A stretch of 64,000 bases of DNA from Felis catus (taxonomy: Eukaryota), in the NCBI RefSeq assembly GCF_018350175.1, contig NC_058377.1, positions 107,322,001 to 107,386,000 of the forward strand, given 5' to 3'. Below are positions 10,601-33,607 of this stretch, piece after piece; position 1 is the first letter of the stretch; each line of letters begins with the position of its first letter. The notes under the pieces were generated by a model. That model was not told where the DNA came from, made no database searches, and saw only the letters and a program-made list of their open reading frames with translations. The position numbers and the translations under genes are program-made.

Positions 10601-13600
10601 AAGCCCCTGAAAACCCGGAGCGGGTGAATAGAGGCTGGCACTCTGGGGGCTTCCTGGGGGCGCTGGGGTAAGGATGCCATTTTTTGTAAGGGGTTTCTCT
10701 TTGGCTGGTCAGTTTCTCAGCAGTGAACCCTCGGATCTCCCGACTGGGAACAGAAGGCTCACTGCCAATGTCTTAGGCGACCGTGGGACTTGGGGGAGTC
10801 TCACCTTCCAGAGCGTCAACTTTCTTCCTCTGTTTCTAGCACAGTGCCGTCCCTCGCCCAGCTGTGCCTAGACTGTCTCTGGCTCACCATCGCCAGAGCG
10901 TAAATCTCTCCTCTGCCAGGTGCCTGGCTGTCACTGGGCTGCAGGGAGTGGGGGCACCGGCTCCCTTTAGACCCCTTCTGCCGTCCTCACGGCAGCCCAC
11001 CCTCACCTCTCGGCCGGAGGATCCCGGTGGGGAGCCTGTCAGGGGCCGCCAGGTGCCCTGGATGCCTCTGTCCAGATCTGTGTTCTTTTTGCTGTTTGTT
11101 CTCTGCCTATTTTCAGAACTCATTAGTGCCTCTACCGCAGAACAGGAGAGGGGAGACGGGTAAGCAATCCCGGCTCTCTCTCTCCCCGTAACTCAGTTCC
11201 CGTTCCCGCTTTCCATCTTCCAGAATGTCGTCCGCATGCCTCACCGGCAAGGATTCCCGCTCCCTTCGTCCCTTTGGGTTGACCCTTTTTACGCCTTTGC
11301 TGTCAGTCGTGGCGGGTTGCAGGGGGACCACGGGCTTGGTCTTCTGACCCGTGAGCTTTGCAGTCCCTGTTCCTTCTTTCTGGAAGGTTCTTCCCATCAC
11401 TCTTCCCGTCAGTGGCCCAGGGCCATCCTTCAGGCCGCAGGGCAGTCCGACATCTCCTCAAGGACAGCTCCCCTGAATGCTTCCTCGCGAGGAGCTCCCT
11501 GCATCCCAGTTCCATCCTCTGTCATCGCCATCGTCCCCGTGGTGCCCTTGTCCAAGGGCGTGAGTGAAAGGCCCCATGGAAGCTACTTCCTTGATTGCTT
11601 TTATCGAGGTCTTGAATCCCCTTATTCATTCATTGATTGGTTTACTCGGTCCCCCTTCTGCCCCCACGGGCACGCAACAGACATGCAGTCGACGTTGGTC
11701 CGGGAAGCTTTACAGAGAGATCGGTGCCACTTGCCCGGGCAGGCCATACGGCTGGAGTTGGGGGTCTGCTGCCCGTGTGAGGCCGCTAGGCGAACTTGGC
11801 ACTGTGCAGGGGGGCAGGGCTGGAGGCTGAGGCTCAAGGGGTCCGGGCGCACAGGGTGCCGGGGGCACTTGGCACCTGACCAACCCAGCCTCCCCCACCC
11901 CTGCCGCAGACGGACCCGGTGCGGCTGACCCAGCTGTACGAGCAGGCGCGGTGGGACCTGCTGTTGGAGGAGACCGACTGCACCGAGGAGGAGATGATGG
12001 TGTTTGCAGCCCTGCAGGTGCCCGGCGGGCCAGGGGACCTGGGGGGCCGGGGCGCGGGCCAGACCCAGGGCAGGGAGGGTCTTCCGGGGTGGGGCCCCGT
12101 CTTCGGGACACCCCACTTAGGGCCCTGTGGGCTCCTGGGCTGCCCACCCAGCCCTCCCTGGCCATGTGCCCCACCCAGTACCACATCAACAAGCTGTCCC
12201 AGAGTGGGGAGGCGGGCGAACCCACCGCCGCAGACCCCGGGCTGGACGACCTGGACGCGGCCCTGAACAACCTGGAGGTGAAGCTGGAGGGGTCGGCGCC
12301 CACAGACGTGCTGGTGAGGAGGAGCCCGGGTCGGGCTGGCGTCGGGGTCAGGGTCGCGTGCGGAGACCTGGCCCTCCTCTGACTCCTCTTCCCCCCCCCC
12401 AGGACAACCTCACCACCATCCCAGAGCTCAAGGACCATCTCCGGATCTTCCGGTGAGTTCGGGCCCAGGGTCGGCAGCGCCGCTGGAGGGGGCCCAGTGT
12501 GGAGACAGAGCACACAGCCTGTCACACACCTGCCTCACCCTCAGGCCCCGGAAGCTGACCCTAAAAGGGTACCGCCAGCACTGGGTGGTGTTCAAGGAGA
12601 CCACGCTGTCCTACTACAAGAGCCAGGAGGAGGCCCCGGGGGACCCCATTCAGCAGCTCAACCTCAAGGGTGAGTGAGGGCCGCCGGGCTAGGACGGGGA
12701 CAAGGGCAGGAGCTGGCTGGGGGCCCACCTGGCCCACCTCAGTTTCCCCCTCGGGGTAGAGGGCAGATACCCTCTGTCCTGAGGCACTGTGCTGGGCCAG
12801 CATTCTCCCAGGGACCTCTCAGGCAGGCCCCCCCCCCCAGCCTCCTACGCACCCCTTCGTCTCCCTCTAGGCTGTGAGGTAGTCCCCGACGTCAATGTCT
12901 CGGGCCAGAAGTTCTGCATCAAACTCCTAGTACCCTCCCCCGAGGGCATGAGTGAGATCCACGTGCGATGCCAGGATGTAAGTGAGGGTCTGGCAGGGGT
13001 CAGCCCCGGGCCGAAGCCGGAGTGGGGCTGGGGACAGGGCCGGGGGGGCCGAACCAGAGCCCGGCGAGCCCCTCACCACCCTCCCCTGTCCCTCGCACCC
13101 CAGGAGAAGCAGTACGCCCACTGGATGGCCGGCTGCCGACTGGCCTCTAAGGGTCGCACCATGGCAGACAGCAGCTACGCCAGCGAGGTGCAGGCCATCC
13201 TGGCCTTCCTCAGCCTGCAGCGGACGGGTGGCGGGGGCTCAGGCAACCACCCCCCGGGCCCCGACGCCTCTGCCGAGGGCCTCAACCCCTACGGCCTTGT
13301 TGCCCCACGCTTCCAGCGGAAGTTCAAGGCCAAGCAGGTGCCAAAGGAAGTGGGTGGGGGGAATGACCACGGCTTTTACCTGGCCACCCTTGGCCCCTGG
13401 ATCTCCACGGAGCCTTCCTCTAGAAAGCCACGTGCTCACTCGTTCCGTCTCCTACCCTTGTCCTTGAGACGGAGCATGCTGGTCCCCACCCCCTGGGAGG
13501 GGTCACGCCGGGCCCGGCTGCTGAGTGGTGCGAGGGCGCCCAGTGGAGGCCCCGCGCTGGGCCCCGCCCCTGCTCCAGGCTCAGCATCCGGTCTCCCTGA

Positions 13601-14807
13601 TGGGGACAGGCAGGGGGTCTCAGGGACTTCGGGGCCGCCCCTCACCAATGTGGTCCCGCAGCTCACCCCACGGATCCTGGAAGCCCACCAGAACGTGGCC
13701 CAACTTTCGCTGTCCGAGGCCCAGCTGCGCTTCATCCAGGCCTGGCAGTCCCTGCCTGACTTTGGCATCTCCTATGTCGTGGTCAGGTACGGGCCCCGCC
13801 CCAGCCCCCCTCTGCCCTCCCCTCCTGCCTGGAGAGGGGCACCCCCGAAGCCTCCCTTCCTGCTCTGTGCGGGCGCCCCCTGGGTGCCCTGCCCTCCTGC
13901 GCCCCCGCAGCAGACACCAGAGCAAGAGACCAGGCCAGGGGGGCAGGAGTCCCAGCTCCTGTCCCAGCTCTGCCGCAGCCCGGTCCCTCTCGAGGCCGCG
14001 GTCCGCTGCTATGACACCGAGTGCCCTCTGCCCGTTTTCCCAGCCTGCAGAGACAGCCAGGCAACAGATGACGACGGTACCCACAAAAGTCGTTACCGAA
14101 AGGCCTGGACACTTTGCCTGACGCTGCCTAGAATGCTAGTATAACGATTAGATCAGTTAACCCTCGTCTTCCAGAAGAGGAACTCGAGGCTCAGAGAACC
14201 TAAATGACAGGAGCACAGCGTGCTCCGGAGCACGGCACCGGGCTATCTGGGGTGGGGGGGGGGAGGGGCTCTGGGGCCCGTGCAGGGCAGGGCTCTTGCT
14301 CACACTCTGTCCTCCCGGGGGAACTAGGTTCAAGGGCAGCAGGAAGGATGAGATCCTGGGCATCGCCAACAACAGACTGATCCGCATCGACTTGGCCGTG
14401 GGCGACGTGGTCAAGACCTGGCGCTTCAGCAACATGCGCCAGTGGAACGTCAACTGGGACATCCGGCAGGTGGGCCCGGAGTGGGGACGGGGCGGGGTGG
14501 CCGGGGGGGGGGGGGGGGAAGCAGGGGGCGCGGCCAGGGGTGGGGCCAGACCACAGCGGCCAGGCCAGACCCAGCCAGGGCAGGACAGGGGCTCCCCCAC
14601 CAGCCCCTCTGACCGCTCACTCTGCAGGTCGCCATCGAGTTTGACGAGCACATCAACGTGGCTTTCAGCTGCGTGTCTGCCAGCTGCCGCATTGTGCACG
14701 AGTACATCGGGGGCTACATTTTCCTGTCGACAAGAGAGCGGGCCCGCGGGGAAGAACTGGACGAGGACCTCTTCCTGCAGCTCACAGGAGGCCACGAGGC
14801 CTTCTGA
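379..14807 (+). CDS. FERMT3: Fermitin family homolog 3 (kindlin-3), partial: first coding exon lies upstream of the window
   Basis: GT-AG exons in frame: 379-612, 842-961, 1049-1217, 1441-1543, 11910-12017, 12179-12313, 12403-12452, 12545-12669, 12871-12977, 13104-13337, 13662-13786, 14328-14469, 14628-14807 (TGA). Kindlin peptides: [12 protein letters not shown], Lys-rich F1 loop [16 protein letters not shown] domain [19 protein letters not shown]3 [13 protein letters not shown]-terminus LTGGHEAF. Confidence 0.98.
2793..3004 (-). mobile_element. Can-SINE
   Basis: Poly-T tail, (GA)n and reverse complement of the GGCGCCTG.GTGGCTCAGTCGGTTAAG head. Confidence 0.9.
3578..3802 (-). mobile_element. 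Can-SINE (felid type)
   Basis: Full body; flanked by a gcaaaatggYattt target-site duplication (3567, 3803). Confidence 0.92.
4109..4330 (+). mobile_element. Two adjacent Can-SINEs (short tRNA-like element plus an internally deleted copy)
   Basis: Heads ggggcgcctgcctggctcag (4109) and ggggtgcctgggtggctcag (4216), each followed by A-rich sequence. Confidence 0.85.
4960..5154 (-). mobile_element. Can-SINE with (TA)n tail
   Basis: SINE body; (TA)n at 4962-4998; target-site duplication caaatttgaaaa (4948, 5154). Confidence 0.92.
5295..5549 (-). mobile_element. Can-SINE
   Basis: Full body with a long (GA)n. Confidence 0.92.
6255..6369 (-). mobile_element. Short Can-SINE
   Basis: tRNA-like head ending gagccagccaggcgcccc plus a T-rich tail. 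Confidence 0.85.
6710..6892 (-). mobile_element. Can-SINE
   Basis: Typical body and tail. Confidence 0.9.
7468..7845 (-). mobile_element. Can-SINE with (TTTC)n tail (7468-7738) next to or nested in a short Can-SINE (7741-7845)
   Basis: Two heads; outer direct repeat tctttgtcattt (7449, 7850). Confidence 0.88.
8925..9163 (-). mobile_element. Can-SINE (felid type)
   Basis: Full body; flanked by ttctgWcaacttttt-like repeats. Confidence 0.92.
9437..9813 (+). mobile_element. Internally deleted Can-SINE followed by a full Can-SINE inserted in its A-tail
   Basis: Heads at ~9437 and 9589; aaaaaaaaaagaata repeated on both sides of the second element. Confidence 0.9.
10067..10276 (-). mobile_element. 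Can-SINE
   Basis: Typical body. Confidence 0.9.
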
Positions 14808-28507: not shown

Positions 28508-28541
<34 letters not shown>

Positions 28542-29959: not shown

Positions 29960-30294
29960 GGGGGGCGAGCTAAAATGGCGTCTCGAGACCCCCTCCGGGA
30001 ACCCGCGTTGGCCTGACCTTAATTTCACCTCGGCCGGAAGTGCCGAAAGCACTTTAGGAAGTCACTTTCACCTAACCTTACCGGCTACAGAGCCACCGGA
30101 AGTAGCGCGTGGTCACGTGTCGGCGCGGGGGCGGAGCAGGGGGAAAGGCCGCTCCGCCCGGCGTGCGGCAGCGGGCTTCGCACAGTCCAATGAGGGCGGG
30201 CGGCGTGGCCCGGCCTGGTGGCGACGATGACGCGCCTGCGCACAGGCGGCAGCACGACTGGGGTTGACTCCGGGGGCGCGGCGAGGAGGTGAGC
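29960..30294 (+). promoter_or_regulatory. FKBP2 promoter and non-coding exon 1
   Basis: YY1 aaaatggcg (~29972), ETS ccggaagt (~30034, ~30096), E-box cacgtg (~30114), CCAAT (30187), donor GAG|GTGAGC at 30289. Confidence 0.75.
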
Positions 30295-30435
30295 GGGGGC
30301 CACAGCCCGGGCTGGGGGGAGCCGGGGTGCACGGGGGCAGGCTGGATCAGGCCGGGCAGGAGCGGGCCGGGGCTGCGAGTGTCAACGAGGGATAGGTCAG
30401 GGGAAATTGGGGGGTGGGGTCGGAGCTGTCTGGGG

Positions 30436-31233
30436 ATGCCGCAGGGGGAGGGTTTTCACGCCGCACGGGGCGGAGCCCCGGGAGTCGGGGCGGGACGTGG
30501 GACGGAGACGGGTGGAACCTCTGAGCTGGTGCCAGTAGAAGGCAGAGCTCCGGGACTGGGGACGGAGCTAGGACAGGTGGGGGGCGGAGCCTGGTCCCTG
30601 GAGGAGGAGCTGGAACAGGCGGAAGGCGGAGCCTCGGGTTTGGAGACCGAAGGGGACGGAGCCCAGGCACTGGGGGCGGGCCTTCAGTCGGTGAGTGGCG
30701 TGGCTACAGTTCAGGAAAGAGGGTCTAGTTCTATCGAGGGCGGGGCTCCAGGGCAAGGGGCGGAACTACGTCCGCTAAAGGGTGGGGTCAAGGAGCAAAG
30801 CGAAGGCGTAGGCCCAGGTAATGGCCCGGGGCGTCCACGCGGGGGCGGTCTCCGCGGGGGCCGGGCCTGGGGACGCGGTAGGCCGAGAACTCCCCCGGGA
30901 GAGGTGGTGTGGGTGGAGCGGGCTCGGCGGCCACCAGACACGGGGCCGGTCTGGGTACCCCGCAGGCCCCCGAGGGCTCAGAGCTGGGGCGGCGCCCCGG
31001 GCGGAGGCACAGGCCCGGCCTGGGGGGTGCCTCCGGAGGATCGGAGTTCCCCGGAGCCACCCAGCGGCGATGTGTGGGTGCCTCGGGGCAGGCCCCCTGC
31101 AGCGGCCTCAGAGGTGTGGGTGTGCTGGGCGGGGGGCAACTGGGTGTGGCGTGAATGGGATCGCTCCGTCGAGGCAACTGCTGGGCAGCCAGATAAGGTC
31201 TGGACTTTGCGTAAAGGGACGGGCGGGAACTGA
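30436..31233 (+). CDS. Putative uncharacterised 265-aa Gly/Pro/Trp-rich repeat protein in FKBP2 intron 1 (candidate upstream ORF)
   Basis: ATG (gggATGc) to TGA, open for 798 nt; 14-aa periodic repeats and recurring VWV motifs with synonymous codon variation (see findings). Confidence 0.55.
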   Translation: MPQGEGFHAARGGAPGVGAGRGTETGGTSELVPVEGRAPGLGTELGQVGGGAWSLEEELEQAEGGASGLETEGDGAQALGAGLQSVSGVATVQERGSSSIEGGAPGQGAELRPLKGGVKEQSEGVGPGNGPGRPRGGGLRGGRAWGRGRPRTPPGEVVWVERARRPPDTGPVWVPRRPPRAQSWGGAPGGGTGPAWGVPPEDRSSPEPPSGDVWVPRGRPPAAASEVWVCWAGGNWVWREWDRSVEATAGQPDKVWTLRKGTGGN

Positions 31234-31538
31234 AGAGTGGAGCTGGGGACCGGGAGGGAAGGAAGGGCTGGGGGTGAGCAAAGGGGCGGGGCCCTGGCTG
31301 CTGTGGCCTCCCCTGACCCCCTCCCCCCGCTGCTGGGGTCCTCGGGCAAGCCCCCTTCTCACTGGACTGGTAAGTGTGGCTGCGGAGCCCGGGGGAGGGG
31401 GTGGTGACCCGGGACAAGGGGATCCCCGTGGGCAGGCAAAGTACGGTGGGGGTGGAATCCTCCTGGTACCTGCCCATATTCCATGCCCTCCCTGCCCTCC
31501 CCCCCGGTCGGTTGGTCGGGGTCTGTCCCCGCAGAGAC

Positions 31539-32843
31539 ATGAGGCTGAGCTGGGTCCTGACAGTATTGTCCATCTGCCTGAGTGCCCTGGCCACTGCTGC
31601 GGGGGCCGAGGGCAAACGGAAGCTGCAGATCGGGGTCAAGAAGCGGGTAGACCACTGTCCCATCAAGTCGCGCAAGGGGGACGTCCTGCACATGCACTAC
31701 ACGGTGGGTGAGGGAGTGGAACATTGGGGTGGGTGGGGCTTCTGGGGACCTGAAAGGACTTGGAAGCCAGATTGCTCAGCCAAGGAGGTGGGTGACCGTG
31801 GGCAAGTCCTGTCTCCCTTTTACACTAGTTTCTATAGCTCTTCCCTGCTGTTGACTGTCTGATCCCCAGCTTGGCACCAGCAAGCAGTGACGATGTGCTG
31901 CGAGCTGCTCAAGGTTCTGTCCCCTCCTAGGATTATGGCTGCCAATGGGGAGCCAGCTTGGGGATAGCTGCTGGGTGGGGAGGTGTGTCAGAGTGGAGCC
32001 TCCTCTTCACTGGCNNNNNNNNNNNNNNNNNNNNNNNNNNNNNNNNNNNNNNNNNNNNNNNNNNNNNNNNNNNNNNNNNNNNNNNNNNNNNNNNNNNNNN
32101 NNNNNNNNNNNNNNNNNNNNNNNNNNNNNNNNNNNNNNNNNNNNNNNNNNNNNNNNNNNNNNGGCTGTGGTTGAGGAGGTTGATTGTGGGAGGCAAGCCC
32201 CAGGGATGGGGTGGGGGGCAGGGGGCCTGGGTGCTTGCCATGCGCTGAACAGGTGTTGTCCTGCAGGATGTGTGAGGGAGAAAAACGGAAGCTGGTGATC
32301 CCATCAGAGTTGGGTAAGAGGCCTTTCCTGAGCCTGGATAGGGGAGTTGGGGGGGGGGGGTCTGGGGAAGGGTGGAGACTGGTTTGCCGCTGCATTGGTC
32401 TCTGTCCCATCCGTTCATTATGTGTCTTCCAAGTCTAGCTGTATCCAGTAGTGAGAACAGGGCAAGACCCTTAGGGCACTTGGTTCTGGCGCCCACCCTC
32501 TGCCCTCTCCTGGGCCTTTTGTAGCCCCTTGCTGTCTCCATTTCTGGCTTTCTTGTTGCGATGGGCAGAGACCTGGCTTCAGCCCGAATGTCTGCAGCCT
32601 CTCTCTCTCTCTCTCTACCCGGTCACAGCTCACTTTTTCTTTCGCATCTTTGACAGGGTATGGAGAGCGGGGAGCTCCCCCAAAGATTCCAGGTAAGATG
32701 CCTTCCTGCCCCCATCTCCTGCCCACCATCTCTTCTTCCTGTGGCCCCGGTTCTCACTCTGTCCTCATTTCTCCCCTGCAGGTGGTGCAACCCTCGTGTT
32801 TGAGGTGGAGCTGCTCAAAATCGAGCGACGTTCAGAACTGTAG
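31539..32843 (+). CDS. FKBP2: FK506-binding protein 2 (FKBP13), ER peptidyl-prolyl isomerase
   Basis: Exons 31539-31703 (signal peptide plus [28 protein letters not shown]), one exon inferred in gap 32015-32162, 32267-32313 ([15 protein letters not shown]), 32657-32692 ([12 protein letters not shown]), 32782-32843 (ends RSEL*, a KDEL-like ER retrieval signal). Confidence 0.95.
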
Positions 32844-33607
32844 CCAAACTGGGGAGGGGCAGTGGAGAGGCCCCCATCAGGGACCAGACTGTTTAAAGAA
32901 AGAAAGAAAGAAAGAAAAAAAAAAATCCCTTAAAGCCCACGAAGTGAGCCTGTGTTTGTTTGTGGGCCCTGAGAGACTTAGAAGCCACATCTTCAACTTC
33001 AGCCTACCCTCTCCCTTGGTACCCCCCACGCCTCTTCTTTACTGGCTGCAGGACCTGGGTGTAGACTCAGTGGCAGGGGGATCGTGAGGGCCAGGCCCTG
33101 GGTGGGACGGTGGTCCTTGCCCAGAGGGAAAAGGAGTGTTCCTAACAGCCAACAGCGACACCGCTCCCCCCACTCCAGCTCCCCAGCCACTTGGAGCTCA
33201 TGGTGTGGGAGCCGGCACTGGGCTATCGTCATGGCTACGTGGCCCTCAGGAAGGCCTGCAGCCACCTGGGGAGAAGCTGCACCGACAGCAGTTGTAGAGG
33301 AGTGTGTCCCCCCTAAAAGAGACCAGCTGAGCCCGTTAGCTGCACCAAAGGCATATCCTAGCTTTATTAAAGGGCCGCGCCGCAGAATCAATATAAAAAC
33401 ACAAAAAGTCCCATCAGTTTAATAACAATAAAAAACCCCAAAATGGAAAACTGAGGGGGCAGGGAAGAGGCCCCTGGGCCAGGGGCACGGGGAGCCCTGC
33501 TCATGGCGCCAGGCCTGGCCGCAGGGCCCCCCGGTATTGCTGTTGCTACGAGGTCGGGGGGCAGCGATTGTCCTGTGGGAGCCACCATTCATGTGGGTCG
33601 AGGACCC

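What the first reader, a model, noticed from the sequence alone, without database searches (positions are those of the whole stretch)
30436..31233. Hidden 265-aa repeat-protein ORF inside FKBP2 intron 1 (14-aa periodicity, VWV motifs)
Seen: the ORF MPQGEGF...KGTGGN* has two repeat modules on a 42-nt register. The N-terminal acidic/Gly units (e.g. EGRAPGLGTELGQV, GGGAWSLEEELEQA, EGGAPGQGAELRPL) recur at 30541, 30583, 30625, 30655, 30697, 30739 and 30781 (spacings 42,42,30,42,42,42), so the only irregularity is an in-frame 12-nt loss. The C-terminal units carry V-W-V(x)R..PP at 30907, 30949, 31072 and 31114, plus WVW at 31141 and VWT at 31198 (spacings include 42, 42 and 84). The motif is spelled GTG TGG GTG in some copies and GTC TGG GTA in another, i.e. 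synonymous variation. An RGG-like basic patch (PRGGGLRGGRAWGRGRP) links the modules. Inference: this looks like selection on a disordered, multivalent protein rather than a chance GC-rich ORF. I recall an uncharacterised protein-coding locus annotated over the 5' end of human FKBP2; this needs checking, and I know of no function for it.
Basis: partly seen in the sequence, partly recalled or inferred. Interest (0 to 1): 0.8.

Follow-up and report, generated by a model that had tools for sequence, protein, structure and literature searches.

The report
Hidden tryptophan-repeat gene inside FKBP2
This is a real gene, found across placental mammals and in a marsupial and already catalogued in humans without a known function, tucked into the front end of FKBP2; its predicted floppy, tryptophan-studded protein likely acts as an adaptor in RNA-protein assemblies, and a bipolar-disorder risk variant is reported to go with more of its RNA in brain.

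Summary
The 265-codon ORF is real and already annotated: human LOC114841035 / ENSG00000286264 (GENCODE v31), rat Fkbp2l1. I found no paper on its function. 69 distinct full-length orthologues, one from a marsupial, keep both ends; none was found outside therian mammals. A codon-position test against a desman gene model gave 37 third-position versus 5 second-position differences, so selection acts on this frame. Constraint lies in the C-terminal half: an RGG box, invariant Ser/Thr sites and six tryptophans on a 14-residue lattice. The protein is predicted disordered; likely a multivalent adaptor in RNA-protein complexes (0.45). New link: three splice donors of FKBP2 lie before, inside (codon 85) and after the ORF. 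Their positions match three human brain splicing QTLs of rs4672, a fine-mapped bipolar-disorder variant. The risk allele lowers the two ORF-destroying junctions and raises the ORF-compatible one and the gene's RNA. Other genes at that locus compete as the cause. Protein-level evidence (ribosome footprints, peptides) was not obtained.

The parts
30436..31233 (+). Single-exon ORF, 265 aa; orthologue of human LOC114841035 / ENSG00000286264 and rat Fkbp2l1
   Evidence: single copy in this genome
30469..30822 (+). N-terminal array of nine units (14,10,14,14,10,14,14,14,14 codons) starting on a Gly-Gly-Ala register; acidic, Gly-rich, weakly conserved; several unit starts are GC-box-like
30688..30696 (+). 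Splice donor inside the ORF, after codon 85; its use removes the conserved C-terminal half
   Evidence: spliced product P0105 and gene models P0034, P0036; same offset (254) as a human brain junction
30390..30401 (+). Splice donor 41 nt before the ORF start; its use skips the whole ORF
   Evidence: human junction donor at offset -42; use in this species inferred
30838..30882 (+). RGG/RG box (RGG-GL-RGG-RAWGRGR, residues 135-149)
   Evidence: two RGG in 67 of 69 orthologues
30880..30897 (+). RPRTPP, with invariant Thr152: predicted proline-directed kinase site
   Evidence: T152 in 69 of 69; RPx[ST]P in 68 of 69; kinase consensus recalled
30868..31206 (+). Tryptophan lattice W145, W159, W173, W214, W228, W256, spaced 14,14,41 or 42,14,28; further W at 184, 196, 231, 236, 238, 241
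   Evidence: spacing kept in 67 of 69 orthologues; 9 of 12 Trp invariant
30949..30993 (+). Most conserved block, VWVPRRPPRAQSWGG (residues 172-186), with invariant Ser183
31111..31155 (+). Possible Trp-rich beta-hairpin, residues 226-240; low confidence
   Evidence: pLDDT about 50; also the only element
31364..31375 (+). Splice donor 136 nt after the ORF stop (end of FKBP2 exon 1b); the only one of the three that leaves the ORF whole
   Evidence: same offset (933) as a human brain junction
31535..31704 (+). FKBP2 first coding exon, shared acceptor at 31535, ATG at 31539

Best explanation
The ORF is a conserved protein-coding gene nested among the alternative first exons of FKBP2, and its product is predicted to be a disordered, multivalent adaptor that likely works in RNA-protein complexes, gripping RNA through its RGG box and a partner protein through a row of tryptophan motifs. 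Shown here: the ORF, its conservation, selection on this frame, the motif layout, the donor positions. Shown in cited data: human cDNA support and use of all three donors in brain. Inferred: (1) the protein is made from transcripts that start upstream of the ATG, pass over the donors at -41 and codon 85, and splice only at the donor after the stop; (2) such an mRNA would carry FKBP2 as a second cistron behind four ATGs, so it likely makes little FKBP2, and with a stop 136 nt before a junction it is predicted to be sensitive to nonsense-mediated decay, which would keep the protein scarce; (3) the acidic Gly-rich N half (median charge -5) is likely a solubilising spacer; (4) the basic C half (median charge +10) likely binds through V-W-V-x-R motifs set 14 residues apart, each docking as a short strand or Trp anchor; (5) phosphorylation at Thr152 and Ser183 and Arg methylation of the RGG box would switch binding off. 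The partner is not identified. My odds: translated protein under selection 0.95; disordered motif-bearing adaptor 0.7; RNA-protein context 0.45.
For: 69 distinct full-length orthologues keep start and end; desman test 37 third- versus 5 second-position differences, p 4e-7, 36 of 36 third-position-only changes synonymous, against 3 versus 4 after the stop; PhyloCSF rank 482, and 794 under the option meant to demote CpG-island false positives; Trp invariant 9 of 12 versus 36 of 93 for G/P/R/A/V, p 0.03; lattice kept in 67 of 69; two RGG in 67 of 69, no hydrophobic segment (max 19-residue hydropathy 0.68), charge split; AlphaFold2 pLDDT 35 and 36; donors match human junctions.
Against: No ribosome-footprint or peptide evidence seen. 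No binding partner shown; RGG boxes are common in GC-rich frames. Low pLDDT with a shallow, mammal-only alignment does not prove disorder. Letter-for-letter conservation of residues 172-186 is more than a generic condensate sequence needs and could serve a non-RNA partner. W228 is Leu in 4 of 69 sequences, human included. The codon test rests on one species pair and on nearest-codon inference. A protein kept on a predicted decay substrate is unexplained unless the mRNA escapes decay. Motif consensuses (DYRK, SH3, RGG box) are recalled and short.
Confidence: 0.45

Rival explanations
1. The last 45 residues fold into a small Trp-rich three-stranded sheet, alone or on a partner, and the protein is a structural or self-assembling binding module unrelated to RNA.
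For: Both models place a hairpin at 226-240, and the C-half model adds a third strand at 255-259; W-x-G-[GS]-x-W-type turn in 68 of 69, like a tryptophan-zipper hairpin (recalled).
Against: pLDDT about 50 at best; no Foldseek match at E 0.001 or better, 9 weak rows; no Pfam or PDB sequence match; the most conserved block (156-186) lies outside the hairpin.
Confidence: 0.2
2. It is a GW182-like tryptophan hook that binds the Trp pockets of Argonaute or CCR4-NOT and tunes microRNA silencing.
For: Argonaute sites of TNRC6 are pairs of Trp ten or more residues apart (PMC9262622, passage), often Gly-flanked (bioRxiv 2025.10.18.683247, passage). W184 and W196 are both WG, invariant and 12 apart.
Against: Five of six lattice Trp follow Val, not Gly, and sit among Arg and Pro; no homology to TNRC6 families; binding untested.
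Confidence: 0.12
3. The peptide matters only on the ribosome: a conserved upstream ORF that stalls at Pro-Pro or Trp codons and so throttles FKBP2 or triggers decay of the mRNA.
For: It lies upstream of FKBP2 on the same transcription unit; five Pro-Pro pairs each precede a Trp by 5-7 residues; the internal-donor form puts the same ATG out of frame over the FKBP2 start.
Against: A 265-codon ORF is far too long for efficient re-initiation (established knowledge); the best-conserved block is 80-110 residues from the stop; invariant kinase-type sites point to a released product; the short exon-1b form can make FKBP2 without it.
Confidence: 0.12
4. No protein: the sequence is conserved as promoter DNA (CpG island, GC boxes) for FKBP2 exon 1b, and the frame is open by chance.
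For: CpG o/e 0.71-0.78; four GC-box consensus matches in the N half; CpG islands give PhyloCSF false positives (PMC6886504, passage); long ORFs are common here.
Against: Codon-position bias inside but not after the ORF; third positions have lost most similarity between repeat units (excess identity 0.08 versus 0.20 and 0.20); similarity to ruminant and rodent sequences drops before Met1 (6-9 of 33 versus 17-27 of 33 after; human 20 versus 28); the best-conserved half has no strict GC-box match.
Confidence: 0.03

Closest known systems
Human LOC114841035 / ENSG00000286264 / AP001453.3 / UniProt A0A494C030; rat Fkbp2l1
   Same: Same gene: 265 aa, same place in FKBP2, 72% identity in the N half and 87% in the C half.
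   Different: Nothing in kind. The sources give no function (Table S6 row blank) and call it placental; a marsupial orthologue is in hand here.
GW182/TNRC6 tryptophan hooks
   Same: Predicted disordered chain with many Trp, no Phe or Tyr in the C half, pairs 10 or more residues apart.
   Different: Lattice Trp are Val-flanked in an Arg/Pro background; no homology; no UBA or RRM; binding untested.
RGG/RG-box disordered RNA-binding proteins (recalled: FUS, SERBP1, FMRP tail)
   Same: Two close RGG plus RG, aromatic residues evenly spaced, charge split between halves.
   Different: One short box, no folded RNA-binding domain, Trp instead of Tyr/Phe, exact sequence conserved.
Bicistronic or nested mammalian genes (recalled: SNURF-SNRPN, MIEF1 microprotein, ASDURF-ASNSD1)
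   Same: A conserved unrelated ORF upstream of a known gene on a shared transcription unit.
   Different: Much longer (265 codons), and three competing donors decide whether it is skipped, cut at codon 85 or kept.

Membership tests
Orthologue of LOC114841035 | Full-length sequence similarity, single copy | tested here: met
   one match in own genome
Orthologue of LOC114841035 | Same position relative to FKBP2 exons and neighbours | tested here: met
   donor offsets 254 and 933 identical to human; FERM-domain exon upstream, FERMT3 is listed at the human locus
Functional protein-coding gene | Excess of synonymous change in this frame | tested here: met
   (one species pair, inferred codons); PhyloCSF
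Functional protein-coding gene | Translation (footprints, peptides) | not testable with these tools
   none seen in the papers read
GW182/TNRC6-type Argonaute hook | Two Trp ten or more residues apart in a disordered chain | tested here: met
GW182/TNRC6-type Argonaute hook | Gly-flanked Trp | tested here: inconclusive
   WG at 145, 184, 196 and often 241; the other eight C-half Trp are not
GW182/TNRC6-type Argonaute hook | Homology to TNRC6 domains | tested here: not met
   0 Pfam families for the window, human and marsupial proteins
GW182/TNRC6-type Argonaute hook | Trp-dependent binding to Argonaute | not testable with these tools
   needs co-precipitation
RGG/RG-box proteins | Two RGG within a few residues (definition recalled) | tested here: met
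   67 of 69
RGG/RG-box proteins | RNA binding and Arg methylation | not testable with these tools
   needs crosslinking and mass spectrometry
WXXGXW repeat, WW domain or other curated Trp repeat | Profile or fold match | tested here: not met
FKBP prolyl isomerases (rat name Fkbp2l1 suggests it) | FKBP_C domain | tested here: not met
   no Pfam hit; PF00254 appears only in gene models fused to FKBP2
PP1 (RVxF) or PAM2 ligands | Recalled consensus present | tested here: not met
   0 of 69 for each
De novo therian gene | No homologue outside the clade | tested here: inconclusive
   none among 1.84 billion representatives or with a marsupial query; unannotated monotreme and reptile DNA not searched

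The most novel reading that the evidence does not exclude
A gene born in the therian ancestor from a 42-nt GC-box minisatellite in the FKBP2 CpG island hardened into a new kind of tryptophan-lattice adaptor. A three-way donor choice switches the locus between FKBP2 and this protein, and the bipolar-disorder risk allele rs4672-A acts by pushing that switch towards the hidden protein rather than through its FKBP2 missense change.
Probability: 0.12. Interest if true: 0.85.

Novelty: already known. Interest (0 to 1): 0.52.

Why it matters
The gene is catalogued, so finding it is not new; what it does is open. It is an orphan with no family, fold or paralogue, yet its core is 75% identical between this species and a marsupial. 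It is one of 23 prioritised bipolar-disorder genes, with a blank function entry. Mapping the published splicing QTLs onto the ORF gives a concrete test: the risk allele should raise the full-length protein. It also warns that FKBP2 knock-outs, knock-downs and variant counts can hit both genes: one hearing-loss study lists identical variant counts for the two.

Tried and rejected
Structure: AlphaFold2 on the whole protein and the C half gave no confident fold; Foldseek nothing at E 0.001; PDB sequences 0; ESM Atlas no usable hit in 2 of 2 searches. A two-copy complex job on residues 140-265 returned no verdict, score 0.00 in both runs; it is not used as evidence. Metagenome scan for related DNA: 154 pattern matches, none a relative. 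No multi-species DNA alignment was in hand, so no true dN/dS; no read-level data were laid for this species, so its transcript structure rests on sequence, stored proteins and human data. One search lists 21 of 24 runs holding half or more of the words of 30240-31400, 4 on record as RNA (2 studies, metatranscriptomes); contigs cannot tell RNA from DNA, so I do not count this as expression. Salmon SMCR8 hit (P0106, E 9e-11) rejected as a Gly/Thr repeat match to the N half only. Dual coding in the +1 frame (30821-31711) rejected: it stays open in 1249-1947 of 5000 synonymous recodings and shows the main frame's codon bias. One ancestral 42-nt array for both halves: weak only, best C-half match at residue 189 reached by 13 of 500 shuffles. 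Idea that the hearing-loss signal lies in the ORF: not supported; the variants are not listed in what I read (5 supplementary files not searched) and the counts fit a shared common variant such as rs4672 (frequency 0.08). Automatic names on orthologues (acetylcholinesterase, elastin, IF-2, collagen, EspB) are low-complexity artefacts. Earlier findings of the scan: 3 look-ups, none bears on this. Identifiers guessed from memory for the mouse gene gave no relevant paper.

Full report
Observation. The ORF runs 30436-31233 and translates as stated. The 13 positions and codon spellings are right. The C half has no significant autocorrelation (z 1.5), but its five VW[VT] motifs fall on a 14-residue lattice more often than random placement gives (766 of 200000 exact). 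ORF length proves nothing here: 55 of 1000 simulations reach it.

Identity. A protein search returned 38 relatives among 8000 scored candidates. The macaque cluster holds human LOC114841035 (NP_001357343.1, A0A494C030); the rat protein is named FKBP prolyl isomerase 2 like 1. Mudge et al. [quoted passage not shown] Its C-half PhyloCSF region ranks 482, and 794 under the option that demotes CpG-island artefacts; it overlaps 5'UTR exon of one FKBP2 transcript and introns of two others. The window's nearest named match is a meerkat model, so the source is probably a cat-like carnivoran (inference). The ORF is single-copy here.

Range. Of 100 proteins in hand, 74 had both conserved ends (69 distinct, the window's included); the 26 dropped were fragments or spliced and fused models. 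Named species cover primates, rodents, a bat, deer, shrews, afrotherians and one marsupial, Dromiciops, which extends the published 'placental'. A profile search of 1.84 billion representatives gave 9 hits: 8 forms of this protein and one spurious salmon repeat. A marsupial C-half query among 3604 candidates found nothing new; a search of longer proteins found one fused model. These are protein collections; unannotated monotreme or reptile DNA was not searched.

Selection. With no orthologous DNA, I used a desman gene model (P0100) that happens to read the C half in the +1 frame, which exposes main-frame codon positions 2 and 3. Over 136 codons there were 37 differences at position 3 and 5 at position 2 (p 4e-7); all 36 position-3-only differences were synonymous. 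In the 46 codons after the stop the count was 3 and 4 (Fisher p 0.016). This is one species pair and nearest-codon inference; whether the desman ORF itself is intact cannot be told from the model. Constraint is uneven: 0 of 104 positions invariant in residues 22-125, 12 of 30 in 126-155, 21 of 31 in 156-186, 14 of 34 in 210-243; marsupial identity is 34% in the N half and 75% in the C half; 22 of 29 gap blocks are in the N half. Nine of 12 C-half Trp are invariant, more than G/P/R/A/V (36 of 93, p 0.03), although TGG has no synonym. Between N-terminal units, third positions keep least similarity (excess 0.08 versus 0.20), so the array decayed as coding sequence, though its unit starts look like GC boxes.

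Anatomy. No Pfam, PDB or Atlas match. AlphaFold2 gives pLDDT 35 and 36, with one weak hairpin at 226-240. There is no signal or membrane segment; the N part is acidic (median -5), the C part basic (median +10). Conserved elements: two RGG (67 of 69), RPRTPP (68 of 69), PRRPPR and RAQSW (69 of 69), and Trp 145-159-173-214-228-256 spaced 14,14,41 or 42,14,28 in 67 of 69, exactly on the lattice in 27. PP1 and PAM2 patterns are absent (0 of 69). Motif meanings are recalled, not tested.

Transcripts. Donors lie 41 nt before the ATG, after codon 85 and 136 nt after the stop, all facing the FKBP2 acceptor at 31535. A contig-derived protein (P0105) joins the N half at the codon-85 donor to FKBP2 exon 2 in another frame. 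Koromina et al. (preprint PMC10889003: passages, Table S5 parts 6-7 and rows of S2-S6; journal version PMC12229890: passages) list AP001453.3 = ENSG00000286264 among 23 prioritised bipolar-disorder genes, function blank. Their three FKBP2 splicing QTLs for rs4672 have donors at offsets -42, 254 and 933 from the human ATG; the window's are -41, 254 and 933. The risk allele lowers the first two (beta -0.40, -0.39), raises the third (+0.33) and raises ENSG00000286264 RNA (+0.42, P 2e-14). Among the 4 genes with an rs4672 expression QTL it has the best HEIDI value (0.53 against 0.014-0.024); FKBP2 has no such row. Against: the third junction is also used by short exon-1b transcripts that lack the ORF; junction ratios are compositional; TRPT1 has a far stronger splicing QTL (P 1e-141, HEIDI 0.53); rs4672 is also an FKBP2 missense change (codon 7); the gene's own sQTL row has HEIDI 0.048; and reads may be hard to assign between overlapping genes. 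Lewis et al. 2023 (PMC10718637; abstract, passages, supplementary rows) give identical variant counts for both genes in two cohorts, which shows that they share variants, not which gene acts.

Mechanism. Most likely the ORF-bearing mRNA is the form that uses only the third donor; it would make little FKBP2 (four ATGs intervene) and is predicted to be a decay substrate. The product is likely a scarce, disordered adaptor: RGG box on RNA, Val-Trp motifs on a partner, tuned by phosphorylation and methylation (0.45). Rivals: small Trp-rich sheet (0.2), Argonaute or CCR4-NOT hook (0.12; criteria from passages of PMC9262622 and bioRxiv 2025.10.18.683247), stalling upstream ORF (0.12), promoter DNA only (0.03).

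Literature. No functional study turned up in searches; hits were gene lists (PMC10988135, passages) or unrelated (PMC9855983, passages; PMC7787264, PMC6283835, PMC8371979, listing only). Most subscription journals are not in the library, and unsearched supplements may hold peptide or footprint evidence.

Verdict. Real, already annotated, function open. Interest 0.52: not a discovery of a gene, but an orphan under strong selection with a testable tie to a disease locus.

Noticed in passing
window 30821-31711 (+) and 30788-31693 (-): Long overlapping ORFs of 296 and 301 aa. The +1 one starts at an ATG in strong context and is also open in a desman model, but it is explained as a by-product of the main frame; no Pfam hit for either.
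   Followed up: yes
window 31234-31369: DNA after the stop is well conserved with the desman (80% identity when read in the +1 frame) with no codon bias; a small human PhyloCSF region falls here. Likely promoter or 5'UTR constraint of FKBP2 exon 1b.
   Followed up: partly
   Followed up: partly
upstream first exon of FKBP2, about 150-210 nt before the ORF start: It holds an ATG that by my hand count is in frame with FKBP2 after splicing; a deer gene model (P0037) instead joins it in frame to Ser210 of the ORF, which would give a microprotein of about 76 aa with the Trp hairpin.
   Followed up: no
window 31233-33366: No AATAAA or ATTAAA between the ORF stop and 33366, so no obvious own poly(A) site; FKBP2's proximal 3'UTR lacks one too, so the point is weak.
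   Followed up: partly
window 28511-28540: Run of 30 C; unexplained, may be an assembly feature.
   Followed up: no
window 12948-14144: Contains a FERM central-domain exon, consistent with FERMT3 and human 11q13 gene order.
   Followed up: partly
human hg19 chr11:64009878: The FKBP2 methylation probe cg11279857 lies one base from rs4672, so that methylation QTL may be the variant removing the CpG itself.
   Followed up: no
P0033, P0035, P0100: Porcupine model stops at residue 149, one contig protein is frameshifted, and the desman model leaves the frame near codon 126-128: splice forms, errors or real losses, not resolved.
   Followed up: no
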